Source of the DNA: Candidatus Moranbacteria bacterium GW2011_GWE2_35_2-
GTDB taxonomy: Bacteria > Patescibacteriota > Minisyncoccia > Moranbacterales > UBA9337
NCBI GenBank assembly: GCA_000990585.1
Contig: LBQD01000002.1
Coordinates: 250,408 to 314,407 of the forward strand
DNA: 64,000 nt
Direction of reading: 5' to 3'
Position numbers and translations under genes: made by a program. Shown here one piece after another: positions 7,750 to 63,521 of the stretch. The stretch's first letter is position 1, and the number at the start of each line of letters is the position of its first letter. The notes beneath the pieces were generated by a model. It was not told the DNA's origin and searched no databases. It was given only the letters and a program-made list of their open reading frames with translations.

Positions 7750-10233
7750 ATGAATAGTTTTGATTTGAATTTAATTTTTTATCCACTACTTGCCGCCTTG
7801 TCTTTGATGACTTTTGTAACGGGTGTGTTTTTGGTTGTGCGCAGTTTTATTTCTTTTCGCGTTCAAATAAACTATTCTATGAATATGGATTTGGAGGTTA
7901 TTCGAGTGACGAAAAAAAATTATGCCAAAGGAGAATCCATGGATAATGGAGAAAGATGGAAAGAAGAAATCGGAGCAATGGAGCAATTACTTTCAACTCT
8001 GGCGAATATTAATAGAAATAAATCATTTTTTTCCGGAATTTTTTATGATGCTCCTTATATTTCTTTTGAAATTGCCAATCCTTCCGATAGTGAAGAGATA
8101 TTTTTCTATTTGGCAGTTCCTAAAAAATTCAAAGAACGCGTAGAAAAGCAGATTCATAGTTTTTTTCCGGATGCGTCTATAGAAAAGAATCCGGACTATA
8201 CCATATTTTCTCCCGGAAGTTTTACTTCAGCGGCAACTTTAGTATTGAAAAATAAGCATGAACTTCCCATTAAAACTTATGAAAATATGGAAACCGATCC
8301 GCTTAATGAAATTTCCAATGCGCTTAGCAAATTAAATACCAAGGAAGAAGGGGCGGCACTTCAAATAGTGCTCAGTCCTGCCGGGTCAGCATGGAGAGAA
8401 TCCGGTAAAGATATTGCGCATAAGATGCAACAAGGACAGCGACTCAAAGATGTCGGTTCAAATTCTTTTTTGAAAGATGTGAGCAGGGGGGTGGGAAAAG
8501 AAATGCAAAATATTGTTATGAAGCCAACGGGAGTGGTAGCGGATTCGAAAAATATTTTGGATAATGAAAAAGCTTTTCAACTTACTCCCGAGGAGCAAGA
8601 ATTGGTGAAATCTATTGAAAGAAAATCCAACAAGACCGGATTTTTGGTTAATATTCGATTGCTTGCTAGTGCTCGAACGCAGGAAAGAGCGGACGAAATT
8701 TTGGCGCATTTGGAAAATGCTTTTTCTCAATTTGAAAATCCGGAAGTGAATAATTTTAAGATTAAAAAAAGAACCAAGAAAAAGGATATTGCCTATCATT
8801 ATATTTTTCGAAATTTTAATGAGGAAAATTCTTTGATTTTGAATGTGGAAGAAGTGGCAAGTATTTTCCATTTTCCAATTTCCACGACTGAAACGCCTAA
8901 AATAAAATGGCTCAAGTCCGGAGCAGCGGCTCCACCGGTAAATATTCCGCAAGAAGGTGTTCTGCTTGGATATAATGATTATCGCGGGCAGAAAACCGAT
9001 ATTTATTTGGGAGACGGAGATAGAAGAAGGCATCTTTATACAATTGGACAAACCGGTGTCGGAAAATCAAATTTTCTGCAAGAAATGGTCAAACAGGATA
9101 TTAAAAATGGAAAAGGAGTTTGTTATATTGATCCTCACGGTGATGCAGTTGAAGACATACTTTCCTGTATTCCCAAAGAGCGCGCTGAAGATGTGATTAT
9201 TTTTAATCCGGCTGACACAGAGCGTCCTTTCGGTCTTAATATGCTTGAGTATTCTCGACCGGAAGAGAAGACTTTTGTGATCAATGAGATGATTGGAATT
9301 TTTGATAAACTTTATGATTTGAAAGCGACCGGAGGTCCGATGTTTGAACAATATGCCCGTAATGCAATGATGCTTATTATGGAGCATCCGGAGTCAGGAT
9401 CCACATTATTGGAAATTTCCAAGGTTTTGGCAGATGAAGATTTTCGAAAAATGAAATTGGAACACTGTGTTAATCCGGTTGTGCGGGATTTCTGGATCAA
9501 GGAAGCGGAAAAAGCCGGAGGAGAAGCGGCACTGGCGAATATGGTTCCGTATATTACTTCTAAGCTCACTACTTTTGTTGCTAATGATATGATGCGCCCG
9601 ATAATTTCTCAGCAGAAAAGTACTTTGAATTTTCGACAAATTATGGATGACAAAAAAATATTGCTTGTTAATCTTTCTAAAGGAAAATTGGGTGAAATAA
9701 ACAGCCACTTACTTGGAATGGTGATCGTGGGAAAAATTTTAATGGCAGCTCTTTCTCGCGTGGATATGCCGGAAGTTGAAAGAAAAGATTTTTATTTATA
9801 CATTGATGAGTTTCAAAATGTTACCACTGACTCTATCTCTCAAATTTTATCCGAAGCGCGAAAATATAAACTCAATCTTATTATAGCTCATCAATTTATC
9901 GGACAGCTTAGTGAAGAAATTTCCAAAGCAGTTTTTGGAAATGTCGGATCAATATGTGCTTTTCGAGTAGGACCGGAGGATGCGGAATTTTTGGAAAAAC
10001 AATTTGCTCCGGTTTTTTCTTCAAACGATTTGGTAAATGTGGATAATTATAATGCTTTTGCTAAAATTTTGGTCAATAATGAGTCAACTAAGCCGTTCAA
10101 TATTAAAACTTATCCTCCAACTTCCGGTGATCAAGAATTGGCAAACAATTTCAAAGAATTGTCGCGCTTGAAATATGGAAGAGATATTTCTATCATTAAT
10201 AAAGAAATTATAGAAAGAGGAAAAGCAAGATAA
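7750..10233 (+). CDS. Type IV secretion-type P-loop ATPase (TraG/VirD4/VirB4 superfamily; coupling-protein-like) with an N-terminal TM anchor
   Basis: N-terminal TM helix (IFYPLLAALSLMTFVTGVFLVV). Walker A is HLYTIGQTGVGKSNF and Walker B is YLYIDEFQNV. The downstream motif KLNLIIAHQFIGQLSEEISKAVFGNVGS resembles the TraG/VirD4/VirB4 QxxxQL...G motif. Confidence 0.6.
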   Translation: MNSFDLNLIFYPLLAALSLMTFVTGVFLVVRSFISFRVQINYSMNMDLEVIRVTKKNYAKGESMDNGERWKEEIGAMEQLLSTLANINRNKSFFSGIFYDAPYISFEIANPSDSEEIFFYLAVPKKFKERVEKQIHSFFPDASIEKNPDYTIFSPGSFTSAATLVLKNKHELPIKTYENMETDPLNEISNALSKLNTKEEGAALQIVLSPAGSAWRESGKDIAHKMQQGQRLKDVGSNSFLKDVSRGVGKEMQNIVMKPTGVVADSKNILDNEKAFQLTPEEQELVKSIERKSNKTGFLVNIRLLASARTQERADEILAHLENAFSQFENPEVNNFKIKKRTKKKDIAYHYIFRNFNEENSLILNVEEVASIFHFPISTTETPKIKWLKSGAAAPPVNIPQEGVLLGYNDYRGQKTDIYLGDGDRRRHLYTIGQTGVGKSNFLQEMVKQDIKNGKGVCYIDPHGDAVEDILSCIPKERAEDVIIFNPADTERPFGLNMLEYSRPEEKTFVINEMIGIFDKLYDLKATGGPMFEQYARNAMMLIMEHPESGSTLLEISKVLADEDFRKMKLEHCVNPVVRDFWIKEAEKAGGEAALANMVPYITSKLTTFVANDMMRPIISQQKSTLNFRQIMDDKKILLVNLSKGKLGEINSHLLGMVIVGKILMAALSRVDMPEVERKDFYLYIDEFQNVTTDSISQILSEARKYKLNLIIAHQFIGQLSEEISKAVFGNVGSICAFRVGPEDAEFLEKQFAPVFSSNDLVNVDNYNAFAKILVNNESTKPFNIKTYPPTSGDQELANNFKELSRLKYGRDISIINKEIIERGKAR

Positions 10234-10275
10234 ATTTTTTAATTAACCTAAATTTCAATTACTAATTTTTAAAAT

Positions 10276-10689
10276 ATGAAAAAAAATATTTTTAACAGGA
10301 AAAGTAATGTTTATATGATTATTATTTTTTCTTTTGTAATCGCATTTGGTTTTTTCCAGTCTGTTTTGGCGCAAAGTTATGTACCGATGGAAAAATTACC
10401 CGGTTCTCCAGGAGCGGCAAATCTCAAGGATTATGTGTTGGCGATTTATAATTTTGCTATTTGGACAGTTGGAATCGCGGCATTTTTTATGATTTCAATT
10501 GGTGGTTTTTGGTATTTTACGGCAGCAGGAAATACGTCCAAGACTGCTAAGGCAAAAGAAATAATCGGTGATGCGCTTTTGGGGGTAATAGTTTCTATGA
10601 TAGCATGGTTGATTTTATATGTGATCAATCCTGATTTGGTGAACGTTAATTTAAGTAGTCTTGGAGAAGGATTGAGGATTAGTCAATAA
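10276..10689 (+). CDS. TrbC/VirB2-like T4SS pilin (signal peptide plus two hydrophobic helices)
   Basis: 137 aa. N-terminal signal peptide ending ..SVLAQS, followed by two long hydrophobic segments separated by a short polar loop (AAGNTSKTAKAKE). This is the classic VirB2/TrbC topology, and it lies immediately downstream of the T4SS-type ATPase. Confidence 0.45.
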   Translation: MKKNIFNRKSNVYMIIIFSFVIAFGFFQSVLAQSYVPMEKLPGSPGAANLKDYVLAIYNFAIWTVGIAAFFMISIGGFWYFTAAGNTSKTAKAKEIIGDALLGVIVSMIAWLILYVINPDLVNVNLSSLGEGLRISQ

Positions 10690-10701
10690 ATATTTTTAAT
10701 A

Positions 10702-11718
10702 ATGAATAAAAAAAATCAGATAATTTGCGTCGGTTCTTCTTGTAAAGACACTTTTTTTCCTACAGGTGATGGTGTTGTTGTTGATACCCCGAGCGATTTG
10801 TTGGCGCAAAAAAAAATTTATTTTGAATTGGGGGCTAAATATAAAGTCGATCAAATATGTGAAGCGCCGGGAGGTTGCGCAGCTAATGTGGCTCAGGGAT
10901 TGGCACGGTTGGAAATTGACGCAGGAGCGCTAACTAAAATTGGCGGAGATTTAGTCGGAAAATGGATAGTGGATGAATTAAAAAAGGAAAACGTGGATGT
11001 TGAATTTGTGCAAATTGACAAAAAATGCCGAACTGACTTGTCATCAATTATTGTTGATACAAAAACCAAAGATCATATTATTTTTTGGAATCGTGATTCA
11101 AATGAAAAGCTGGAAATTTCTTCGGAAAAAATTCCTTCAGCGGAATGGATTTTTGTAAGTGCACTTAATGGAAATTGGCGAGTTCATTTGGATATAATAA
11201 TTGAAATGGCGAAGAAAAAAGATATGAAAATAGCTTTGAATCCCGGACAAAAAAATATTCATGATGACGCGAAAAAAGTTTTAGAAGCAATAAAAAATTC
11301 TCAAATTTTGATTTTGAATAAAGACGAAGCAATTGAAATAATTTCCGAGTCCGGACATTGGAAAGGAGGTAATATTAATTTAAACAATGAGAAATTTTTA
11401 TTGAAAGAATTTTTAAATTTGGGGTGTAGTGCCGTTGTTATCACGGACGGAAATCGCGGAGCGTGGGGATCTGATGGTAAGAGTAATTATTTTTGTCCGG
11501 GAATTAAGGTGGATACCGTGGATACTCTTGGAGCGGGAGATGCATTTACAAGTGGATTTTTGGCGGCGTATTTGAAAGAAAAGGATATTCAAGAGTGTCT
11601 TCGTTGGGGGGCGGCAAATGGAAGTAATGTTGCGAAATTTTATGGAGCGAAAAATGGACTTTTGAGAATAAATGAGATTGAAGCGAGAATTGAGAATATA
11701 GAAATTAAAATTTTTTAA
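10702..11718 (+). CDS. PfkB-family carbohydrate/nucleoside kinase (ribokinase-like)
   Basis: C-terminal DTLGAGDAFTSGF anion-hole motif and a GG dipeptide region typical of the ribokinase/PfkB fold. Confidence 0.7.
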   Translation: MNKKNQIICVGSSCKDTFFPTGDGVVVDTPSDLLAQKKIYFELGAKYKVDQICEAPGGCAANVAQGLARLEIDAGALTKIGGDLVGKWIVDELKKENVDVEFVQIDKKCRTDLSSIIVDTKTKDHIIFWNRDSNEKLEISSEKIPSAEWIFVSALNGNWRVHLDIIIEMAKKKDMKIALNPGQKNIHDDAKKVLEAIKNSQILILNKDEAIEIISESGHWKGGNINLNNEKFLLKEFLNLGCSAVVITDGNRGAWGSDGKSNYFCPGIKVDTVDTLGAGDAFTSGFLAAYLKEKDIQECLRWGAANGSNVAKFYGAKNGLLRINEIEARIENIEIKIF

Positions 11719-55807: not shown

Positions 55808-55843
55808 GAATTAGGAGTCGGATTATTTTTTTGGGAATGTGAG

Positions 55844-55871
55844 AACCGGCTGGAATATGCCGGTTTTTTTG
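55844..55871 (+). terminator. Rho-independent terminator after ndk
   Basis: AACCGGC-tggaatat-GCCGGTT followed by TTTTTTT. Confidence 0.7.
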
Positions 55872-55899
55872 TATAAGGTATTTACTTTTAAAAAAATAA

Positions 55900-55939
55900 A
55901 ATTTACCATTTAGAAACGGTCGTTTCTAAATGGTAAATT
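55900..55939. repeat. 40-bp near-perfect palindrome AATTTACCATTTAGAAACG-gt-CGTTTCTAAATGGTAAATT
   Basis: 19-bp perfect arms seen directly. No flanking U-run. Confidence 0.6.
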
Positions 55940-55983
55940 GATGGATAGGGAAGGAGGGAATTGGAACAAAGATTTGATTGTGG

Positions 55984-56012
55984 ATAAGTTGGTTTGACAA
56001 TATTTTTTTGTT
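55984..56012 (+). promoter_or_regulatory. Consensus sigma70 promoter TTGACA-17-TAGAAT positioned for a leaderless transcript
   Basis: The -10 ends 6 nt before the ATG at 56019, so the predicted TSS is at about the A of the ATG. Confidence 0.5.
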
Positions 56013-56018
56013 TTACTA

Positions 56019-56108
56019 GAATATGAGTATGAATAATTTATCAGCTAAAATGTTGCTAGCCTATTTGCTAGTCCTCATTCTTGAGGGACATTTTTTGCCG
56101 GTTAAATT
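56019..56108 (+). CDS. Candidate leaderless 29-aa hydrophobic peptide (MNNLSAKMLLAYLLVLILEGHFLPVKLNS); possible type I toxin-like or membrane micro-protein
   Basis: Promoter immediately upstream, terminator 45 nt downstream, a single predicted TM helix. Confidence 0.3.
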
Positions 56109-56152
56109 GAATTCATAATTTTAAGAGTAGTAGCATAGAAAAGAAATTCAAC

Positions 56153-56176
56153 CCGGCAAAAAAGCCGGATTTTTTG
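56153..56176 (+). terminator. Rho-independent terminator CCGGC-aaaaaa-GCCGG plus ATTTTTT (nested in the outer IR AAATTCAAC/GTTGAATTT)
   Basis: Seen directly. Confidence 0.6.
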
Positions 56177-56210
56177 TTGAATTTAAATGTAGCTCTTTAA
56201 CAATCTGTAT

Positions 56211-56247
56211 ACTACAAAATCTTGCGATCGTGAGTGTTTTGTAGTAA
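56211..56247 (+). promoter_or_regulatory. Inverted repeat TACTACAAAA-N17-TTTTGTAGTA upstream of the 63-aa ORF
   Basis: 10-bp perfect arms. The loop contains CGATCG. Confidence 0.35.
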
Positions 56248-56288
56248 ATGGGTTTGGCGAAAAAAATAAAAAAGAGAAGGAGGAAAGT

Positions 56289-56480
56289 ATGGGACCCGTT
56301 TGTTCTAATGGAATAGTTGAGAGTAATCAAAAGATTGTTGCGGCTGGTAATGAATTAGATTCGATACAGCGCCAGATTGACGCAGCTAAGAGGGCTGACG
56401 ATACTGCTCGGGTTGCTGAATTAAGTCGCCAGCTCGAGGGGAAAAAGAATGTTGTTAGAGGCGATAGGCCATATTTTTAA
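56289..56480 (+). CDS. Small helical protein (63 aa) with a strong SD
   Basis: AAGGAGGAAAGT precedes the ATG. Charged, coiled-coil-like sequence (QRQIDAAKRADDTARVAELSRQLEGKK). Confidence 0.4.
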   Translation: MGPVCSNGIVESNQKIVAAGNELDSIQRQIDAAKRADDTARVAELSRQLEGKKNVVRGDRPYF

Positions 56481-56495
56481 TGAGGAGGAATTTTT

Positions 56496-56642
56496 ATGAC
56501 AGATAGCAAATGTTTGTATGAAAACGGTTGTCAGAGCTGTATTGCTATGTGCGCTGTTGGAAAATGTCCGCGAATGCAGGGAGTGGATGTTTTTTCTGCC
56601 TTTGGCAAGAAAAAGGCGTGTATTAAGCTTGCTGGAAAATAA
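56496..56642 (+). CDS. Cys-rich 48-aa peptide (MTDSKCLYENGCQSCIAMCAVGKCPRMQG..) with a strong SD
   Basis: TGAGGAGG 8 nt upstream. Cys in CxxC-like spacing. Followed by a hairpin plus U-run (about 56668-56712). Confidence 0.4.
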   Translation: MTDSKCLYENGCQSCIAMCAVGKCPRMQGVDVFSAFGKKKACIKLAGK

Positions 56643-56715
56643 TATTTTTTTCCATATTATATAAAGGGTTCGGTCGAAAATTTGACCGTTCCCTTTTCTT
56701 TTTTTGTGAATCTTT

Positions 56716-57741
56716 CTATTTTACAATATGCATTTCCATTGTGTCTGCGTTGAGAATGACTGCCATAGAGTGCATTTTTCCGACCATATCTGGCAAATTT
56801 TTCTTGATAATGTCTTGCGTGAGGCGGTTGAGATAGAGCGTGCGTTCTTTGGCGCGCGAAATTTCTGCGGCGTCCGAGTATACCGCGGATGACAAAAGCA
56901 CGAATTCTTTTTGTCCGCTTTTCGCGTTCATATTCGATTTGATGATATTGGCGGCGGTTTGAATCGGTTCGCCGATATTCGGGTCATATGGACCGACAAT
57001 CATTGCAATATTCGGCGTGTGCAGCCAATCAAATCCTTTTCCTACTGCCAAAATCCATTCGCCGTGAACCATTTGTTTGAGAGGCTTGCCAGTGTTTGTT
57101 GTTTGTTTGATGCAACGCATATTTCCTTGTACCAGTGGAATTAAATCAGAAAGAATTCGTTCCGGCATTGATGGATATAATTTTCCAAAAAGTGTTTTCA
57201 AATTTTTTTCATCACTATCTTTGATTGTCGCTACATCCATAATTTGTCCATTTTCTCCATGGAAAATCAAAGCGTCTTTGTCCGTTTCCAGTCCGACCAG
57301 AATTGGAAAAACTACCCCGTTGTTTTCTCCATATGTGCGCAGAATTTGTTTGCGGAATTCTTCTGTGAATCTTTTCGATTCTTCACAGTCATAATGAAAT
57401 CCGGCACATCCGCGATGCTGGTCTCCTTCAGAATAATGATATGTCACCAGGACGAGCGTGCGGTTTCCTTTGGCTACGGCTTTTTTCACATAGCGGTCGA
57501 AAGATTCGTTCAGGAGCGGCCAACCGAGATCGAATTTTCCTCCGATGTTGCGGAAGGGGTGCATAATTCCTAGCGGAGTTTGGGTGACAGTCGGCATATG
57601 AATGCGCCCGTCCATACATTTGAAAACAATCACATTGGTCGGATGTTTTGCCAAATATAGTTCTCTTTCGAGTCGTTGGCTTTGAAACATTTCCGAATGT
57701 TTTTTGTTCAACTCAGTAATGAGTTTGATTTTATTTTCCAT
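56716..57741 (-). CDS. Divergent beta-class carbonic anhydrase-like protein (zinc-site motifs CxDxR and HxxC) with a ~140-aa C-terminal extension
   Basis: VIVFKCMDGRIHMP..FRNIGG and QHRGCAGF, spaced about 60 residues apart as in beta-CAs (compare CSDSRV...HTxCGG). Confidence 0.45.
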   Translation of the reverse strand: MENKIKLITELNKKHSEMFQSQRLERELYLAKHPTNVIVFKCMDGRIHMPTVTQTPLGIMHPFRNIGGKFDLGWPLLNESFDRYVKKAVAKGNRTLVLVTYHYSEGDQHRGCAGFHYDCEESKRFTEEFRKQILRTYGENNGVVFPILVGLETDKDALIFHGENGQIMDVATIKDSDEKNLKTLFGKLYPSMPERILSDLIPLVQGNMRCIKQTTNTGKPLKQMVHGEWILAVGKGFDWLHTPNIAMIVGPYDPNIGEPIQTAANIIKSNMNAKSGQKEFVLLSSAVYSDAAEISRAKERTLYLNRLTQDIIKKNLPDMVGKMHSMAVILNADTMEMHIVK

Positions 57742-57835
57742 AATTTTTTACGTTTTTAATTAGTTTGGACTTTGGATTAGTATGATACATTGTAAGTGTA
57801 TAATAAAGGGTGAAAAAATCAATAATTTTGGGATA

Positions 57836-57935: not shown

Positions 57936-58163
57936 ATGCCTGACATGGGAAAGAAGTGGTTAGCGTTGAGCGAGAAGAGTTCAGCAGGGAAATTGCGGAT
58001 TCCTGCTGCCGGATTGAATGATGGCGTAAGCAGTTTGTATCGCGGGACCGTCTATCATCCCGAGAGCGGAGAGTTGTTGATTCGGGAAGATACTTCGGGT
58101 TGTAGCGGTGAGTTTCCTTCTGCGGGTGGCATTTGCCCGTGCAGCCGGACATACAGCGGGTAA
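57936..58163 (+). CDS. GC-rich 75-aa ORF (C-terminal GCSGEFPSAGGICPCSRTYSG) of unknown function
   Basis: Strong SD, promoter upstream, and locally elevated GC in an AT-rich genome. Confidence 0.35.
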   Translation: MPDMGKKWLALSEKSSAGKLRIPAAGLNDGVSSLYRGTVYHPESGELLIREDTSGCSGEFPSAGGICPCSRTYSG

Positions 58164-59106: not shown

Positions 59107-60189
59107 TTGATAATTATGAAGATTTTTAAGTTAGTTTTTATTCTGCTGATGATGTTTGTTTTTGCATTTCCGGTTTTTGCGCAAGATTCCAAGAAACAGG
59201 CAGTGTATTTTTATGCATCTTGGTGCGCTCACTGCCAGAATGTGGAGGCTTATTTTGAGAAAGAGGGATTTTATGATAAATATGACATTGTGAAGCTTGA
59301 TTATGATAAAGAAGAGAATAAAATTCTTTTGGCAAAAATATTTTCTGCAAAAGGATATAAAAATCTGGGAATTCCCGCGATTATTATTGATAATCAGTTG
59401 ATCTCCGGCGATGAGCCGATAATTAAAAATTTTGTCAAAAGAATAGAGTCTTCTAATGGAACCGCGGTTGATTTTGTGAATGGTTTTGCCGAAGAAGAAA
59501 GCAAAGTAAGTAGTGATGGTTTGTCGTTTCCGGTCTTGATTGGAGCGGCATTGGTGGATGCAATCAATCCTTGTGCGTTTGCCGTGTTGATTATTTTAGT
59601 GGCGACAGTAGTTGGAGCGCAAGGAAGAAAAAAAGCGCTTTGGTCCGGATTGCTTTTTTCACTGGCAGTTTTCATTTCATATTTTTTGATGGGGCTGGGG
59701 TTGTATAAAGTGATTACAATTTTTAATCTTCCAAAGATAATCTCAATTATTGTTGGGGTTTTGGCGATTGTGATTGGACTAGCGAATCTTAAGGATGCTT
59801 TTTGGCACGGAAAAGTTTTTTTGATGGAGGTACCGATGAGTTGGCGACCAAAAATGAAATCAATATTAAAAAATGTTACTAGTCCATTGGGAGCGCTTGG
59901 AGCCGGATTTTTAGTGAGTCTTTTTTTACTTCCTTGTACGAGCGGTCCGTATATTGTCGTACTTGGTCTTTTGGCGGAAAAAGTTCAAATTTCTCGGACA
60001 CTTTTATTGCTTACTGTATATAATTTAATTTTTGTTCTTCCGATGGTGATGATTACCTTGGCGATGTATTTCGGACTTCGCGGAGGAAAAATGGAGCAGT
60101 GGCGAACAAAAAACATACACTTGCTTCATGGCGCCGCCGGAGTTATAATGACAGGGATAGGAGTCTATCTTATAGTCAGTTGGCTATAA
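59107..60189 (+). CDS. Fusion of a periplasmic thioredoxin-like domain (WCAHC) with a CcdA/DsbD-type transmembrane thiol-disulfide transporter
   Basis: Signal peptide. YASWCAHCQ. TM-embedded Cys in NPCAFAVL and LPCTSGP typical of CcdA. Confidence 0.7.
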   Translation: MIIMKIFKLVFILLMMFVFAFPVFAQDSKKQAVYFYASWCAHCQNVEAYFEKEGFYDKYDIVKLDYDKEENKILLAKIFSAKGYKNLGIPAIIIDNQLISGDEPIIKNFVKRIESSNGTAVDFVNGFAEEESKVSSDGLSFPVLIGAALVDAINPCAFAVLIILVATVVGAQGRKKALWSGLLFSLAVFISYFLMGLGLYKVITIFNLPKIISIIVGVLAIVIGLANLKDAFWHGKVFLMEVPMSWRPKMKSILKNVTSPLGALGAGFLVSLFLLPCTSGPYIVVLGLLAEKVQISRTLLLLTVYNLIFVLPMVMITLAMYFGLRGGKMEQWRTKNIHLLHGAAGVIMTGIGVYLIVSWL

Positions 60190-60282
60190 TAATTTTTAAT
60201 TTAAAATTTTTAATTTTTAATGATTTAATTTTGGAAATTCCTAATTAAGTTAAAATTTAGAAATTAGAAATTACGAAGTTAT

Positions 60283-60597
60283 ATGGAAGTAACTTTTACA
60301 GATGCAAATTTTGATCAAGAAGTTATCAAAAGCGAAAAGATTACTTTGGTGGATTTTTGGGCGCCATGGTGCGGACCGTGCCAGATGATGGGACCGATTA
60401 TTGAGGAATTGGCGAAAGAAGTCGGCGATAAGTTCAAGGTCGGAAAATTGAATGTGGATGAAAATCCTGAAACATCCCAAAAATACGGGATAATGTCCAT
60501 TCCGGCCATCAAGATTTTCAAAGGTGGCGAAGTGGTAAAAGAATTTGTCGGAGTGCAAGATAAGGACAGCTTGAAAAATGAACTCGAATCTTTGTAG
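60283..60597 (+). CDS. trxA: Thioredoxin
   Basis: Motif WAPWCGPCQM and the canonical ~105-aa fold. Confidence 0.9.
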   Translation: MEVTFTDANFDQEVIKSEKITLVDFWAPWCGPCQMMGPIIEELAKEVGDKFKVGKLNVDENPETSQKYGIMSIPAIKIFKGGEVVKEFVGVQDKDSLKNELESL

Positions 60598-60628
60598 AAA
60601 ACAAATGTTTTATGAATATATATTCCAA

Positions 60629-60663
60629 CCAACTCCGACTCAATGTCGGAGTTGGTTTTTTTA
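60629..60663 (+). terminator. Rho-independent terminator after trxA
   Basis: CCAACTCCGAC-tcaat-GTCGGAGTTGG followed by TTTTTTT. Confidence 0.8.
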
Positions 60664-60761
60664 TTGACATAACGATGTTTTTTTGCGATAATTTTTTGAA
60701 GAGATGAATTTAAAAAAGTACTTTTATAAAAACCATTCTCCAATAAAAGGAGGTGAAGAGG

Positions 60762-61379
60762 ATGAGTCAAATGGAGAGAAAAATGCTAGAAGATTTCTTG
60801 AAAAAATCTGGGTTTGATAATGCAGATGGTGCGATGGAGGCGCTTGAATTGTATTATCAGATTATGATGAGGGGGAGATTCAAGTTGGCCCCAAAGGAAA
60901 GGATCGACGAGGAGCTTCTCAGGAAGGCTATCCAAGTTGTTACTAAGGATAGGGTGGAAGGAATTCTTCTTATTCCTATGAATAAATTTTTTATTATCAG
61001 AGGAGGGGTAGTGTCTTTTGATGCCTATCTGAAGGGAAATTTCTCTTATATATGGAAAGAGGAATCCAAGAATGATGGAACTCTGACGCTTTTGAGTGAG
61101 CGGTTTTGGGATGGTATTGGACGTGATATTGCTAAAGTTTTTTTTGACAATATCGATGACACTTTTAGTTATAAATACGGTGTCAGTGTCCGAAATGCTC
61201 TGAATAAAAATTTTTTTTATTTCTTGTGGTTTTTTTTGAAAAAGGATGTTGAGCAGACCAAGCGCCTTGAGGCCACGCTTAAGTTCTGGGGAAAGTGCTT
61301 TATCGTAGGAAAGAAAAAAGGTTCGGGAGTTTGGCTGGTTGCGACGAAAAGTATCAAGGAGGATGTTTTGGCTAAATGA
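60762..61379 (+). CDS. Hypothetical protein (about 205 aa) between trxA and trxB
   Basis: RBS AAGGAGGTG. The ATG at 60762 is preferred over the GTG at 60753. No recognisable motifs. A terminator hairpin GAGGGAT/ATCCCTC plus T6 lies at 61378-61412. Confidence 0.45.
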   Translation: MSQMERKMLEDFLKKSGFDNADGAMEALELYYQIMMRGRFKLAPKERIDEELLRKAIQVVTKDRVEGILLIPMNKFFIIRGGVVSFDAYLKGNFSYIWKEESKNDGTLTLLSERFWDGIGRDIAKVFFDNIDDTFSYKYGVSVRNALNKNFFYFLWFFLKKDVEQTKRLEATLKFWGKCFIVGKKKGSGVWLVATKSIKEDVLAK

Positions 61380-61508
61380 GGGATCAGCGAGAAATCGCCA
61401 TCCCTCTTTTTTATTTGAAATTTTGTCTTGCGAATGGTAGTATTATGAATAAGTGTGAGATATTTGGTATAATGTATTAAGTATAAAAAATTAACAAAAA
61501 ACAGAATT

Positions 61509-62438
61509 ATGGAGAATGAAAAGAAGATGTATGATTTGATTATTATCGGGGCGGGACCGGCCGGGTTGGGAGCCTCGATTTATGCTTCAAGGTATAAGCT
61601 GGATCATATTGTGATTGGAAATGAAATCGGCGGGCAGGTAGTGGAAGCCTCTGAAATAGAAAATTGGGCGGGAGAAGTTTCTATTCCGGGAAAAACTTTG
61701 ATGGAAAAATTCGAGCACCACGCGCGTCATTTCGGAGTAAAAATTATCCAATCGGATGTATCTTCGGTGGCAAAAGCAGAAGAAGGATTTGAGATTATGG
61801 CGGGTGGAGAAAAATATTTGGCAAAAAGTTTGATTTTGGCGCTGGGAATGAAACCGAGAAAAATGAATGTTCAAGGAGAAGACAAATTTGTCGGCAAGGG
61901 TGTGTCATATTGCGCGACTTGCGACGCGATGTTTTTTCGAGAAAAAGATGTGGTGGTGATCGGAGGAGGGGATGCGGCGGCAACCGCGGCGATTCATTTG
62001 ACTGAATTTGCCAAAAGCGTAAAGCTTGTTTATCGCGATGCGTATAACTGGGAGCCATCTTGGGATGAACAGATTGAAAAAAGCGGAAAAATCGAGAAAA
62101 TAAAAATGAATAGCGTGAAAGAAATTTCCGGCGATGCAAAAGTTTCCGGAATTGTTTTGGACGTTGATGGTCAGGAGAAAAAAATAGACGTACAAGGAGT
62201 TTTTATTGAAGTGGGAACTACTCCCGGAGTGGCGATTGCGCAAGGACTTGGCGTGGCATTGGATGAGCAAAGTTATATCGTTGTCGACCAAACGCAAGCG
62301 ACTAATGTGGAAAATGTCTACGCCGCCGGAGACGTAACAACCGGATCAAACAAATTCCGCCAAATAATCACCGCAGTCGCCGAGGGGGCTGTAGCGGCGG
62401 GATCGATTTATAAAAAGCTAAAGATTAATAAAAAATAA
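61509..62438 (+). CDS. trxB: Thioredoxin-disulfide reductase
   Basis: FAD motif DLIIIGAGPAGL, redox-active CATCD, and the NADPH GGGDAA motif. Confidence 0.9.
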   Translation: MENEKKMYDLIIIGAGPAGLGASIYASRYKLDHIVIGNEIGGQVVEASEIENWAGEVSIPGKTLMEKFEHHARHFGVKIIQSDVSSVAKAEEGFEIMAGGEKYLAKSLILALGMKPRKMNVQGEDKFVGKGVSYCATCDAMFFREKDVVVIGGGDAAATAAIHLTEFAKSVKLVYRDAYNWEPSWDEQIEKSGKIEKIKMNSVKEISGDAKVSGIVLDVDGQEKKIDVQGVFIEVGTTPGVAIAQGLGVALDEQSYIVVDQTQATNVENVYAAGDVTTGSNKFRQIITAVAEGAVAAGSIYKKLKINKK

Positions 62439-62501: not shown

Positions 62502-63521
62502 ATGATTTTAAACAAAATGAAAAAGAAAAATACGGAAAAAAACTTGCCAAACAAAGGTGAAGTTATCATCTATAAAACTTCAAAAAATGAAGTCGCTTTG
62601 GATGTGCGGTTGGAAAATGAAACGGTGTGGTTGACGCAAAAGCAAATTGCCATACTTTTTAACACCGAAAGAAGCGTTATTACGAAGCATTTGAGGAATA
62701 TTTTTGTATCAGGTGAATTAAAAGAAAAAAGCAATGTGCAAAAAATGCACATTGCAAATTCTGATAAGCCGGTAAATTTTTATGGCTTGAATGCTATTAT
62801 TTCAGTTGGCTATCGTGTTAATTCTAAGCGTGCTACTGAATTCAGAATTTGGGCTACTGAAATTTTGAGGGATTATTTAATTAGAGGCTATGTGCTGAAC
62901 GATAAAAAACTTCTCGATGCAAAAGAAAAATTATTAGAATTAAAAAACACAATTAATTTTTTGCAAGAAAAATCCAAAAGCAATTCATTGGCTGGACAAG
63001 AAAGTGAGATTTTGGATTTGCTTTCGAATTACGCCAAAACTTTATCTATTCTTGAAAAATATGACAAAGAGAAATTGGAAGCGCCAAAAGGCAGTAAGAG
63101 TAAATTTGTTTTGAAATATGATAATTGTCTGAAAATAATTTCTGAATTGAAAGAGAACTTGATCACCAAGAAAGAAGCTAGTAGTCTTTTCGGCAGTGAA
63201 CGTGGCGGAAGTTTTGAAGGAATAATAAAAGGATTATATCAGACTTTTGGCGGCAAAGAATTGTATGCAAGCTTTGAAAGCAAGGCTGCGCATTTGTTGT
63301 ATTTGATAATTAAAGATCATCCTTTTTCCGATGGTAACAAAAGAACCGGCGCTTTTTTGTTTGTGTATTTTTTGGACAAAACTAATTATTTGTATCGAAA
63401 ATCAGGCGAAAAGAAAATCAATGATAATGCCTTGGCGGCATTGGCGCTTTTGGTTGCGGAAAGTAATCCAAAAGAAAAAGAGGTGATGGTGAAAATAATA
63501 ATGAATTTAATAACAGAATAA
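62502..63521 (+). CDS. RhuM-like N-terminal domain fused to a Fic/Doc-family domain (Doc-type motif HPFSDGNKRTG)
   Basis: The C-terminal HxFx(D)GNKR motif is the Doc/Fic active-site signature. Confidence 0.65.
   Translation: MILNKMKKKNTEKNLPNKGEVIIYKTSKNEVALDVRLENETVWLTQKQIAILFNTERSVITKHLRNIFVSGELKEKSNVQKMHIANSDKPVNFYGLNAIISVGYRVNSKRATEFRIWATEILRDYLIRGYVLNDKKLLDAKEKLLELKNTINFLQEKSKSNSLAGQESEILDLLSNYAKTLSILEKYDKEKLEAPKGSKSKFVLKYDNCLKIISELKENLITKKEASSLFGSERGGSFEGIIKGLYQTFGGKELYASFESKAAHLLYLIIKDHPFSDGNKRTGAFLFVYFLDKTNYLYRKSGEKKINDNALAALALLVAESNPKEKEVMVKIIMNLITE

What the first reader, a model, noticed from the sequence alone, without database searches (positions are those of the whole stretch)
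56716..57741. Divergent beta-carbonic-anhydrase-like protein with a long C-terminal extension
It has the beta-CA zinc-ligand signatures (CMDGR and HRGCAG, about 60 residues apart, plus FRNIGG). Otherwise it is highly diverged and carries an extra ~140-aa domain. It sits between two Cys-containing small-peptide genes. It could be a carbonic anhydrase, a CS2-hydrolase-like enzyme, or a repurposed beta-CA fold.
Basis: partly seen in the sequence, partly recalled or inferred. Interest (0 to 1): 0.5.

Follow-up and report, generated by a model that had tools for sequence, protein, structure and literature searches.

The report
Compact non-carboxysomal CsoSCA-type carbonic anhydrase (CsoSCA2)
This gene from a tiny Moranbacteria (candidate phyla radiation) genome encodes a compact, free-standing relative of the carboxysome carbonic anhydrase; the family was named CsoSCA2 in 2022, so this is an ordinary member of a known family that nobody has yet tested biochemically.

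Summary
The ORF is real: window 56716-57741, minus strand, 341 aa. All three quoted motifs are present.

It is not an orphan beta-CA with an unrelated extension. It is a full-length member of CsoSCA2, the compact non-carboxysomal CsoSCA homologs named in PMC9164163. That paper already lists Candidatus Moranbacteria among the carriers.

- **HMM:** Pfam CsoSCA_cat scores just above its cut-off. Pro_CA scores below its cut-off.
- **C-terminal domain:** the "extra ~140-aa domain" is the degenerate second beta-CA domain typical of CsoSCA. It has no conserved Cys. It supplies invariant His226 and Glu228, the counterparts of the catalytically critical His397 and Glu399.
- **Zinc ligands (by homology):** Cys42, His102 and Cys112. 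The His of HRGCAG is not one of them.
- **Missing features:** the carboxysome-targeting N-terminal domain, the vicinal-Cys redox switch and the RuBP-site lysine. This predicts a constitutively active cytosolic enzyme.
- **Flanking small ORFs:** they are lineage-restricted orphans, not conserved partners.

In other genomes, csoSCA2 repeatedly sits next to ATP synthase, Hyf-like, DabA or SulP genes. None of these is in this window.

Verdict: already known, low to moderate interest.

The parts
56716..57741 (-). csoSCA2 gene: 341-aa compact CsoSCA-type beta-carbonic anhydrase (stop codon at 56716-56718)
57643..57741 (-). Residues 1-33: short N-terminal segment of two helices. It replaces the ~144-aa Rubisco-binding/oligomerisation domain of carboxysomal CsoSCA.
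   Evidence: The model has helices at residues 2-21 and 23-32. This matches the description of the compact CsoSCA2 variant in PMC9164163.
57232..57642 (-). Residues 34-170: catalytic beta-CA domain
   Evidence: PF20686 matches residues 82-161 and PF00484 matches residues 38-105. The A1 profile aligns to 2FGY at positions 45-170.
57604..57618 (-). Cys42-Met-Asp44-Gly-Arg46: first zinc ligand plus the Asp-Arg dyad (counterparts of CsoSCA Cys173/Asp175/Arg177)
   Evidence: All five residues are invariant in 35 relatives. The stretch aligns to PCADGR of 2FGY.
57436..57438 (-). His102: predicted second zinc ligand (counterpart of CsoSCA His242)
   Evidence: His102 is invariant. It aligns to the His of YHFS in 2FGY. 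The ligand identity in CsoSCA is given in PMC12646314.
57406..57417 (-). His109-Arg-Gly-Cys112: Cys112 is the predicted third zinc ligand (counterpart of Cys253). His109 corresponds to the non-ligand His250.
   Evidence: Cys112 is invariant. His109 is present in 33 of 35 relatives, with one Asn and one Cys.
57079..57231 (-). Residues 171-221: connecting strand and helices between the two domains
   Evidence: The model has a strand at residues 167-169 and helices at residues 178-188 and 194-217.
56719..57078 (-). Residues 222-341: degenerate second beta-CA domain with no zinc site
57058..57066 (-). His226-Gly-Glu228: counterparts of CsoSCA His397/Glu399, which position bicarbonate and the active-site water
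   Evidence: Both residues are invariant. They align to HAE of 2FGY. Their role in HnCsoSCA is described in bioRxiv 10.64898/2026.04.02.716132.
56671..56688 (+). Terminator-like hairpin in the 73-bp gap between csoSCA2 and the convergent 48-aa ORF
   Evidence: The consensus scan is. This is a pattern match only.
57789..57816 (-). Weak sigma-70-like promoter match (TTTTCA-16-TACAAT) about 48 bp upstream of the start codon
   Evidence: One search gives 9 of 12 matches. The number of such sites in the region is not above the shuffled expectation, so this is only a candidate.

Best explanation
The gene encodes a cytosolic zinc carbonic anhydrase of the CsoSCA subclass of beta-CAs, in its compact non-carboxysomal form (CsoSCA2).

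**Architecture.** One polypeptide forms a pseudo-dimer. The first beta-CA domain is active. The second is a degenerate beta-CA domain that has lost its metal site.

**Catalysis (inferred by homology).**
- Zinc is held by Cys42, His102 and Cys112.
- The Asp44-Arg46 dyad keeps the fourth coordination position free for water or hydroxide.
- His226 and Glu228, from the second domain, position the water and bicarbonate.
- The enzyme interconverts CO2 + H2O and HCO3- + H+.

**Regulation (inferred).** The protein lacks three features of carboxysomal CsoSCA:
- the N-terminal Rubisco-binding/hexamerisation domain;
- the vicinal-cysteine redox switch;
- the RuBP-site lysine. It has instead the Arg64/Asp238 pair of the constitutively active Halothiobacillus enzyme.

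It should therefore be active as made, in a reducing cytoplasm.

**Physiological role (weakest step).** Its likely role in this small-genome fermentative bacterium is to keep CO2 and bicarbonate at equilibrium, for bicarbonate-requiring biosynthetic carboxylations and for proton/pH buffering.

**What is shown and what is inferred.** The fold, family membership and residue conservation are shown. Metal binding, activity and physiological role are inferred.
For: **HMM.** PF20686 CsoSCA_cat scores 25.4 bits against a cut-off of 21.5.

**Family.** 2037 homologs of 340-365 aa match. In the 50%-identity library, 554 clusters match, 293 of them at E <= 1e-30.

**Conservation.** In 35 relatives down to 43% identity, C42, D44, R46, R64, H102, C112, H226 and E228 are invariant.

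**Residue mapping.** The profile of the family hits 2FGY at E 3.4e-8. It places C42/D44/R46/R64/H102/C112/H226/E228/D238 on C173/D175/R177/R196/H242/C253/H397/E399/D409. The roles of those CsoSCA residues are given.

**Structure.**
- The AF2 model has pLDDT 91.6 and pTM 0.90.
- Foldseek matches 8thm at E 3.8e-17 and 2fgy at E 4.8e-17, with TM-score normalised to the query 0.74-0.79.

**No redox switch.** No family member has a CC pair. The CsoSCA CC position is Tyr/Phe137-Gly138 here.

**Literature.** CsoSCA2 is described with exactly this architecture, and Moranbacteria are listed as carriers. The protein is 44% identical over its full length to the Nitrosomonas oligotropha homolog, the species used to define CsoSCA2.

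**Context in autotrophs.** csoSCA2 is adjacent to the inorganic-carbon transporters DabA and SulP, which fits an inorganic-carbon substrate.
Against: - No CsoSCA2 protein has been assayed, according to the papers found. Activity rests on homology at 14-20% identity to the characterised enzymes.
- The PF20686 score is only 4 bits above its cut-off. PF00484 (15.9 vs 25.7) and TIGR02701 (30.6 vs 241) are below theirs.
- I could not read model coordinates, so the zinc-site geometry was not measured.
- The window gives no functional context. The neighbours are unrelated housekeeping genes on the opposite strand.
- No clear Shine-Dalgarno sequence precedes the ATG, unlike neighbouring genes.
Confidence: 0.8

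Rival explanations
1. CsoSCA2 is not a free equilibrating enzyme. It is an accessory of proton-translocating membrane machinery: F1Fo ATP synthase, a Hyf/complex-I-like module, or DAB. It would deliver or remove protons and bicarbonate locally, or make CO2 hydration directional. The copy in this window would be an unlinked member with the same partnership.
For: In 73 species-level loci with a usable gene call:
- csoSCA2 directly follows atpC (10 loci) or atpH (2 loci) on the same strand. Gaps are 9-94 bp in eight of the ten atpC loci and 135-234 bp in the other two.
- In Moraniibacteriota it precedes a NuoB/PF00361/NuoH-K/PF00361/NuoCD-NiFe cluster.
- In about 14-16 Nitrosomonas-type loci it follows DabA plus three PF00361 proteins. 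In 3 more loci it is convergent with that cluster.
Against: - In this window, and in its 97%-identical relatives L007 and L008, the gene is alone on the opposite strand. No atp, Hyf-like, DabA or SulP gene is within 64 kb.
- Many loci show none of these neighbours.
- Gene adjacency does not show physical association.
- The protein has no membrane segment or obvious docking extension.
- Carboxysomal CsoSCA is active on its own (PMC9164163).
Confidence: 0.1
2. The beta-CA fold has been repurposed for a related small-molecule hydrolysis, as in carbonyl sulfide hydrolase or CS2 hydrolase, rather than CO2 hydration.
Against: - All residues known to act in CsoSCA catalysis are invariant, including the His/Glu pair from the second domain.
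- Relatives neighbour bicarbonate/CO2 transport genes, not sulfur metabolism genes.
Confidence: 0.04
3. It is a bona fide carboxysomal CsoSCA or a remnant of a decayed carboxysome locus.
For: The only Pfam and NCBIfam matches are to carboxysome-shell CA models. Some databases label relatives 'carboxysome shell carbonic anhydrase'.
Against: - TIGR02701 scores 30.6 bits against a cut-off of 241.
- The N-terminal domain needed for Rubisco binding and hexamer formation is absent; only 33 residues are present.
- No Rubisco, shell or CsoS2 gene was found among the Pfam-scanned ORFs, which cover most but not all of the ~15 kb upstream and ~6 kb downstream.
- The family is conserved at full length across many phyla, so it is not decaying.
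Confidence: 0.01
4. It is a catalytically dead, regulatory or structural beta-CA-like protein.
For: No member of the family has been assayed. One of its two domains is certainly defunct.
Against: The complete catalytic set is invariant across relatives down to 43% identity. That pattern is expected for an active enzyme.
Confidence: 0.05

Closest known systems
[quoted passage not shown] 2024, PMC11086599)
   Same: - Length is about 340-365 aa.
- The N-terminus is about 35-40 aa and forms two helices.
- It has an active plus a defunct beta-CA domain, with all catalytic residues present.
- It is encoded outside any carboxysome locus.
- It is 44% identical over its full length to the Nitrosomonas oligotropha representative.
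- Moranbacteria are already listed as carriers.
   Different: Nothing of substance differs; this is a member. The published description does not mention the gene neighbourhoods seen here (ATP synthase, Hyf-like, DabA, SulP).
Carboxysomal CsoSCA (Halothiobacillus neapolitanus 2FGY/9G4T; Cyanobium 8THM)
   Same: - The Cys/His/Cys ligands have about 10-residue His-Cys spacing.
- The Asp-Arg dyad is present.
- The His397/Glu399 counterparts are present.
- The Arg196/Asp409 pair of the constitutively active Hn enzyme is present.

   Different: - Sequence identity is only 14-20%.
- The ~144-aa N-terminal domain (Rubisco-binding peptide, hook motif, hexamerisation) is missing.
- The vicinal Cys283/284 redox switch is missing.
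- Several loops are shorter.
- It is not in a cso operon.
- TIGR02701 scores far below its cut-off.

Canonical beta-carbonic anhydrases (Pfam PF00484; e.g. Cab 1G5C, CcaA 5SWC, S. mutans 3LAS)
   Same: - The CxDxR motif and the following RN-GG segment align directly to 3LAS.
- The chemistry is Cys2His zinc.

   Different: - PF00484 scores below its cut-off (15.9 vs 25.7).
- It is a single chain with a dead second domain, not a homodimer of identical domains.
- The ligand His is not the His of an HxxC motif.

Porphyridium purpureum tandem beta-CA (1DDZ)
   Different: In 1DDZ both repeats keep a zinc site. Here the second has none.
DabA (PF10070), the beta-CA-like subunit of DAB inorganic-carbon pumps
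   Same: It is a distant beta-CA-type Cys/His/Cys site. In Nitrosomonas-type genomes, DabA and csoSCA2 are encoded in one cluster.
   Different: There is no PF10070 match. DabA is 800-1080 aa and membrane-complex bound.

Membership tests
Beta-carbonic anhydrase superfamily | Beta-CA alpha/beta fold | tested here: met
   [not shown]
Beta-carbonic anhydrase superfamily | Cys-x-Asp-x-Arg motif plus a downstream His and Cys as zinc ligands | tested here: met
   C42, D44, R46, H102 and C112 are invariant in 35 relatives. They align to the CsoSCA ligands.
Beta-carbonic anhydrase superfamily | Pfam PF00484 (Pro_CA) at or above its gathering score | tested here: not met
   The score is 15.9 bits against a cut-off of 25.7, and the match covers only residues 38-105.
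Beta-carbonic anhydrase superfamily | Zinc binding and CO2 hydration activity | not testable with these tools
   This needs the purified protein. Model coordinates could not be inspected for site geometry.
Carboxysomal CsoSCA (PF20686 / TIGR02701) | CsoSCA catalytic-domain HMM (PF20686) at or above its gathering score | tested here: met
   The score is 25.4 bits against a cut-off of 21.5, covering residues 82-161. The margin is narrow.
Carboxysomal CsoSCA (PF20686 / TIGR02701) | NCBIfam equivalog TIGR02701 at or above its cut-off | tested here: not met
   The score is 30.6 bits against a cut-off of 241.05.
Carboxysomal CsoSCA (PF20686 / TIGR02701) | Catalytic domain followed by a zinc-less second beta-CA domain (pseudo-dimer) | tested here: met
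   The whole-chain superposition covers 323 of 341 residues. The C-terminal domain alone matches CsoSCA and then canonical beta-CAs. That domain has no conserved Cys. A sequence test for the duplication found nothing (hhalign probability 0.2%), as is also the case for CsoSCA itself.
Carboxysomal CsoSCA (PF20686 / TIGR02701) | His397/Glu399 pair from the C-terminal domain at the active site | tested here: met
   H226 and E228 are invariant and align to HAE of 2FGY.
Carboxysomal CsoSCA (PF20686 / TIGR02701) | ~144-aa N-terminal domain with Rubisco-binding peptide and oligomerisation hook | tested here: not met
   Only 33 residues (two helices) precede the catalytic domain. The papers state that this domain is unique to cso-associated forms.
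Carboxysomal CsoSCA (PF20686 / TIGR02701) | Vicinal cysteine redox switch (Cys283/284; present in ~80% of CsoSCA) | tested here: not met
   The aligned position is Tyr137-Gly138. None of the 35 relatives has a CC pair.
Carboxysomal CsoSCA (PF20686 / TIGR02701) | Encoded in a cso operon with Rubisco, CsoS2 and shell genes | tested here: not met
   The neighbours scanned with Pfam include ComEC, an MBL-fold protein, SpoIIM, Ndk, UppS, thioredoxins, TrxR, an ABC transporter and ApbE. The scan covered most, not all, ORFs from about 41.7 kb to 63.5 kb, and the rest of the window was not scanned.
CsoSCA2, compact variant (PMC9164163) | About 40-aa N-terminus forming two short helices, with shortened loops | tested here: met
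   The model has helices at residues 2-21 and 23-32. The protein is 341 aa, against 514 aa for HnCsoSCA.
CsoSCA2, compact variant (PMC9164163) | Active plus defunct domain with all catalytic residues retained | tested here: met
CsoSCA2, compact variant (PMC9164163) | Located outside carboxysome loci | tested here: met
CsoSCA2, compact variant (PMC9164163) | Full-length homology to named members (e.g. Nitrosomonas oligotropha non-carboxysomal copy) | tested here: met
   It is 44% identical over residues 5-341 to N. oligotropha Nm75 and Nm45 (L031, L038; E about 1e-100 to 1e-102). P0090 agrees. The exact IMG sequence used in the paper was not retrieved.
COS / CS2 hydrolases of the beta-CA fold | Closest structural or sequence relatives are these hydrolases, or a narrowed hydrophobic substrate tunnel is present | tested here: inconclusive
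   [not shown]
DabA (PF10070) | PF10070 HMM match | tested here: not met
   There is no match even at E <= 10.

The most novel reading that the evidence does not exclude
CsoSCA2 enzymes may be dedicated partners of chemiosmotic machines.

In many Patescibacteria the gene is the last gene of the F1Fo ATP synthase operon. In Moraniibacteriota it heads a Hyf/complex-I-like cluster. In nitrifiers it closes a DabA + 3x NuoL/M/N-like cluster.

The enzyme could supply or sink protons and bicarbonate at these complexes. It could, for example, buffer the cytoplasmic face of an ATPase running in reverse in fermentative ultra-small bacteria. The Moranbacteria copy in this window would then be an unlinked member of that partnership.

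The recurrent linkage is observed here. The 2022 paper that named the family does not mention it. The functional coupling is pure inference.
Probability: 0.12. Interest if true: 0.6.

Novelty: already known. Interest (0 to 1): 0.28.

Why it matters
For this window, the result is a clean annotation. A gene deposited as 'hypothetical protein' is a CsoSCA2-type carbonic anhydrase. Its odd C-terminal half is explained, and the residue roles are assigned.

More broadly, CsoSCA2 is widespread. At least 586 matching stretches were found across species-representative genomes. 554 clusters at 50% identity match the family profile.

CsoSCA2 may be the ancestor from which the carboxysome enzyme arose, yet no member has been assayed. 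It is retained in genomes under 1 Mb, which argues that CO2/bicarbonate equilibration matters even in fermentative episymbionts.

The residue comparison gives three directly testable predictions:
- the enzyme is active under reducing conditions;
- it is independent of RuBP;
- its activity depends on His226.

These would help show how the carboxysomal enzyme acquired its regulation.

Tried and rejected
**1. Sequence test for internal duplication.** I ran hhalign of residues 33-170 against 222-341 from the family alignment. Probability was 0.2%, so nothing is detectable. The duplication is supported only by structure.

**2. Conserved partnership with the flanking small Cys-containing ORFs.**
- The 48-aa ORF matched a single database cluster, that of the syntenic relative L008. 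The 75-aa ORF matched only its own cluster. This is out of 5.8 billion clusters.
- tblastn finds them only in the syntenic relative L008.
- A 97%-identical strain (L007) has different sequence in their place.
- They are rejected as functional partners.

**3. RNA gene hidden under the 75-aa ORF region.** Rfam at gathering threshold finds only two tRNAs in the whole window, both elsewhere.

**4. Informative domain fusions.** The longer family members (P0141 at 704 aa, P0156, P0205, P0193, P0203) show no second Pfam domain.

**5. Carboxysome remnant.** Rejected; see the rival explanations.

**6. Link to the nearby thioredoxin/TrxR genes through the CsoSCA redox switch.** Rejected, because the switch cysteines are absent from the whole family.

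**7. Partner genes in this window.** I searched for ATP synthase, Hyf-like, DabA and SulP genes. There were no tblastn hits.

**8. Active-site superposition at atomic level.** Not possible, because model coordinates are not exposed by the tools.
Full report
**Observation**

It lies at window 56716-57741 on the minus strand, is 341 aa, starts with ATG, and includes its stop codon. The motifs CMDGR (residues 42-46), FRNIGG (63-68) and HRGCAG (109-114) are present. I checked them codon by codon against the DNA.

The gene is the only minus-strand gene in a long run of plus-strand genes. An identical protein is deposited as a hypothetical protein of Candidatus Moranbacteria bacterium GW2011_GWE2_35_2-, on a 788-kb contig.

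**Family**

- Pfam gives CsoSCA_cat (PF20686) at 25.4 bits, just above its 21.5-bit cut-off.
- The general beta-CA model PF00484 reaches only 15.9 bits, against a cut-off of 25.7.
- The NCBIfam carboxysome-shell CA equivalog TIGR02701 scores 30.6 bits, against a cut-off of 241.
- A database search finds 2037 relatives, nearly all 340-365 aa. They come from Patescibacteria (Moraniibacteriota, Magasanikbacteria, Uhrbacteria, Parcubacteria) and from Nitrosomonas, Nitrospira, Thiobacillus, Azoarcus and others.
- A profile search of a 50%-identity library finds 554 clusters, 293 of them at E <= 1e-30.
- At least 586 matching stretches in species-representative genomes encode a relative.

**Structure**

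With a 35-sequence alignment (A1), AlphaFold gives a confident model with pLDDT 91.6 and pTM 0.90.

- Foldseek's only strong hits are the solved CsoSCA structures: 8thm at E 3.8e-17 and 2fgy at E 4.8e-17, with TM-score normalised to the query 0.74-0.79. Next comes the tandem beta-CA 1ddz.

**Active site**

The family profile aligns to 2FGY at E 3.4e-8. The 2FGY chain carries a 28-residue tag. After allowing for that offset, the window residues map onto CsoSCA as follows.

| Window residue | CsoSCA counterpart |
|---|---|
| Cys42 | Cys173 |
| Asp44 | Asp175 |
| Arg46 | Arg177 |
| Arg64 | Arg196 |
| His102 | His242 |
| His109 | His250 |
| Cys112 | Cys253 |
| His226 | His397 |
| Glu228 | Glu399 |
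| Asp238 | Asp409 |

Cys173, His242 and Cys253 are the zinc ligands in the solved CsoSCA structures (PMC12646314). His397 and Glu399 position bicarbonate and the active-site water (bioRxiv 10.64898/2026.04.02.716132).

In the 35-sequence alignment, C42, D44, R46, R64, H102, C112, H226 and E228 are invariant. H109 is replaced by Asn once and by Cys once. The HRGCAG motif therefore does contain a ligand, Cys112. The ligand His is most likely His102, not His109. This rests on homology and conservation. I could not measure the geometry in the model.

**The C-terminal 'extension'**

The domain has no conserved cysteine. Its only Cys in the window protein, C210, is His in most relatives. It therefore cannot form a Cys2His site.

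It is the degenerate second beta-CA domain of the CsoSCA pseudo-dimer, not an unrelated addition. It is functionally integrated through His226/Glu228. A profile-profile comparison of the two halves found no sequence signal of the duplication (probability 0.2%).

**What is missing relative to the carboxysomal enzyme**

- Only 33 residues (two helices) precede the catalytic domain. CsoSCA has a ~144-aa N-terminal domain that binds Rubisco and drives hexamer formation. That domain is reported to be unique to cso-operon forms.
- The regulatory vicinal cysteines (Cys283/284), which make CsoSCA inactive when reduced, align to Tyr137-Gly138. No family member has a CC pair.
- At the RuBP-dependent site of the Cyanobium enzyme (Lys469), the window protein has Asp238 paired with Arg64. 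This is like the constitutively active Halothiobacillus enzyme, which has Arg196 and Asp409.
- No carboxysome, Rubisco, ATP synthase, DabA or SulP gene was found among the neighbours scanned or by tblastn across the 64-kb window.

Together these predict an unregulated enzyme that is active in a reducing cytoplasm.

**Literature**

Sutter, Kerfeld and Scott (PMC9164163) named the non-carboxysomal homologs CsoSCA2. They describe a compact variant with a ~40-aa two-helix N-terminus, an active plus a defunct domain, and all catalytic residues. They remark that these proteins have not been studied. They list Candidatus Moranbacteria (nine genomes) among the carriers.

Pulsford et al. (PMC11086599) call them 'smaller uncharacterized non-cso isoforms'. 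A 2025 PNAS paper uses them as an outgroup. A search for 'CsoSCA2' finds no experimental study.

The window protein is 44% identical over its full length to the Nitrosomonas oligotropha homolog, the species used to illustrate CsoSCA2. It is therefore an ordinary member of a known family.

**Surroundings in the window**

Neighbouring genes, from upstream to downstream:
- ComEC and an MBL-fold protein.
- SpoIIM-like protein.
- Nucleoside diphosphate kinase.
- UppS.
- A thioredoxin-domain membrane protein.
- Thioredoxin.
- Thioredoxin reductase.

Further out lie an ABC/MacB transporter, ApbE and a ferric-reductase-like protein.

The gene is flanked by three small plus-strand ORFs with strong ribosome-binding sites:
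- 63 aa at 56289-56480.
- 48 aa with 6 Cys at 56496-56642.
- 75 aa with 3 Cys at 57936-58163.

The 48-aa ORF matched a single database cluster (that of L008), and the 75-aa ORF matched only its own cluster. Both are conserved only in the syntenic relative L008. In L007, whose CA is 97% identical, different sequence stands in their place. They do not accompany csoSCA2 in any other locus. They are not functional partners of the CA.

**Surroundings in the family (seen in passing)**

I fetched 79 loci from species-representative genomes. I called ORFs, clustered the neighbours and named the clusters with Pfam. Six loci gave no usable gene call, leaving 73. Four contexts recur.

- **(A) ATP synthase, in Patescibacteria.** csoSCA2 follows atpC on the same strand in 10 loci (L015, L016, L017, L019, L020, L023, L028, L043, L054, L067). 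Gaps are 9-94 bp in eight of them and 135-234 bp in L019 and L020. It follows atpH in 2 more loci (L021, L024).
- **(B) Hyf/complex-I-like, in Moraniibacteriota.** csoSCA2 precedes NuoB-like, PF00361, NuoH+K, PF00361 and NuoCD/NiFe-large-subunit-like genes (L001, L009, L011, L016, L018).
- **(C) DAB, in Nitrosomonas and related betaproteobacteria.** DabA (PF10070, 797 bits) and three PF00361 proteins precede csoSCA2 on the same strand in about 14-16 loci. The cluster is convergent with csoSCA2 in 3 more loci.
- **(D) SulP, in Nitrospira.** A SulP transporter directly precedes csoSCA2 in 6 loci.

Contexts C and D support an inorganic-carbon substrate. Contexts A and B suggest a link to proton-translocating machinery. 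The paper that named the family does not mention ATP synthase or SulP contexts. None of these contexts applies to the window gene or its closest relatives L007 and L008.

**Mechanism and rivals**

- **Best explanation (confidence about 0.8):** a constitutive cytosolic CsoSCA2-type zinc carbonic anhydrase. The fold, family and residue conservation are shown. Zinc binding, activity and role are inferred.
- **Accessory of ATP synthase, Hyf-like or DAB complexes (about 0.1):** supported by family context but not by this locus.
- **Catalytically dead or regulatory protein (about 0.05).**
- **COS/CS2-type hydrolase (about 0.04).**
- **Carboxysomal enzyme or carboxysome remnant (about 0.01):** contradicted by tests.

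**Verdict**

The interpretation as a beta-CA is right, but three details are wrong: the nature of the extra domain, the identity of the ligand His, and the significance of the small ORFs.

The feature is an already-known kind. Interest is low to moderate. What interest there is comes from the lack of any biochemical study of the family and from the recurrent linkage to chemiosmotic machinery seen elsewhere.

Noticed in passing
L015, L016, L017, L019, L020, L023, L028, L043, L054, L067 (csoSCA2 at about 10001-11020 in most); L021, L024: In 10 Patescibacteria-type species genomes, csoSCA2 is the gene immediately after atpC (F1 epsilon) on the same strand. Gaps are 9-94 bp in eight of them and 135-234 bp in L019 and L020, so it looks like the last gene of the ATP synthase operon. 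In 2 more genomes it follows atpH (OSCP). The 2022 paper that named CsoSCA2 does not mention this.
   Followed up: partly
L001 6328-11026; L009, L011 11137-18384; L016; L018: In Moraniibacteriota 60-78% identical to the window protein, csoSCA2 is followed on the same strand by a Hyf/complex-I-like cluster. The cluster has a NuoB-like gene (PF01058), PF00361, a NuoH+NuoK fusion, PF00361 and a NuoC/D-NiFe large-subunit-like gene. L016 has both this cluster downstream and the atp operon upstream.
   Followed up: partly
L027, L029-L034, L037-L039, L047, L052, L055, L069 (e.g. L031 2033-11017); convergent in L045, L077, L083: In Nitrosomonas and related betaproteobacteria, csoSCA2 closes a cluster of DabA (PF10070, ~1070 aa) plus three paralogous PF00361 (NuoL/M/N-like) proteins. 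This DAB-type locus has three antiporter-like subunits and a second, soluble CA.
   Followed up: partly
L035 7940-15934; L036, L044, L056, L060, L076: In Nitrospira, a SulP-family transporter directly precedes csoSCA2. Two sigma-54-type response regulators and a sensor kinase follow it.
   Followed up: partly
L014 10001-12200; L020 10001-12300: Two csoSCA2 paralogs lie in tandem on the same strand in one Moraniibacteriota genome and in one CPR-like genome labelled 'Gammaproteobacteria'.
   Followed up: no
window 56289-56480, 56496-56642, 57936-58163 (all + strand): Three small ORFs (63, 48 and 75 aa) each have an AGGAGG-type ribosome-binding site. The 48-aa one has 6 Cys. The 48-aa and 75-aa ORFs have no relatives outside this lineage in 5.8 billion clusters. 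A strain with a 97%-identical CA gene (L007) has unrelated sequence at both positions, so these intergenic stretches are hypervariable.
   Followed up: partly
window 55900-55939: A 40-nt near-perfect palindrome (18-bp stem, AATTTACCATTTAGAAAC...GTTTCTAAATGGTAAATT) followed by a T-run lies in the gene-poor stretch downstream of ndk. Several further terminator-like hairpins lie between 55848 and 56171. The scan found 8 sites against 2.5 expected from shuffles.
   Followed up: no
window 55808-56288: About 480 bp between ndk and the first small ORF have no convincing ORF. The stretch holds a strong promoter-like site (TTGACA-17-TAGAAT at 55994-56022). No Rfam family matches at gathering threshold.
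   Followed up: no
L008 (CAZSCV010000008.1, labelled Bdellovibrionales) and L011 (DYDB01000006.1, labelled Micavibrio): MAGs labelled as predatory bacteria carry contigs with Moranbacteria-type csoSCA2 (97% and 76% identity). L008 is also syntenic with the window. This is probably a binning mix-up.
   Followed up: no
window 59107-62438: A cluster of thiol-redox genes lies just downstream: a thioredoxin-domain protein with a long membrane region, thioredoxin, an unannotated 208-aa protein and thioredoxin reductase. There is no evident link to the CA, because the CsoSCA redox-switch cysteines are absent from it.
   Followed up: partly
window 62502-63521: A 339-aa protein combines RhuM-family and Fic/DOC domains.
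   Followed up: no
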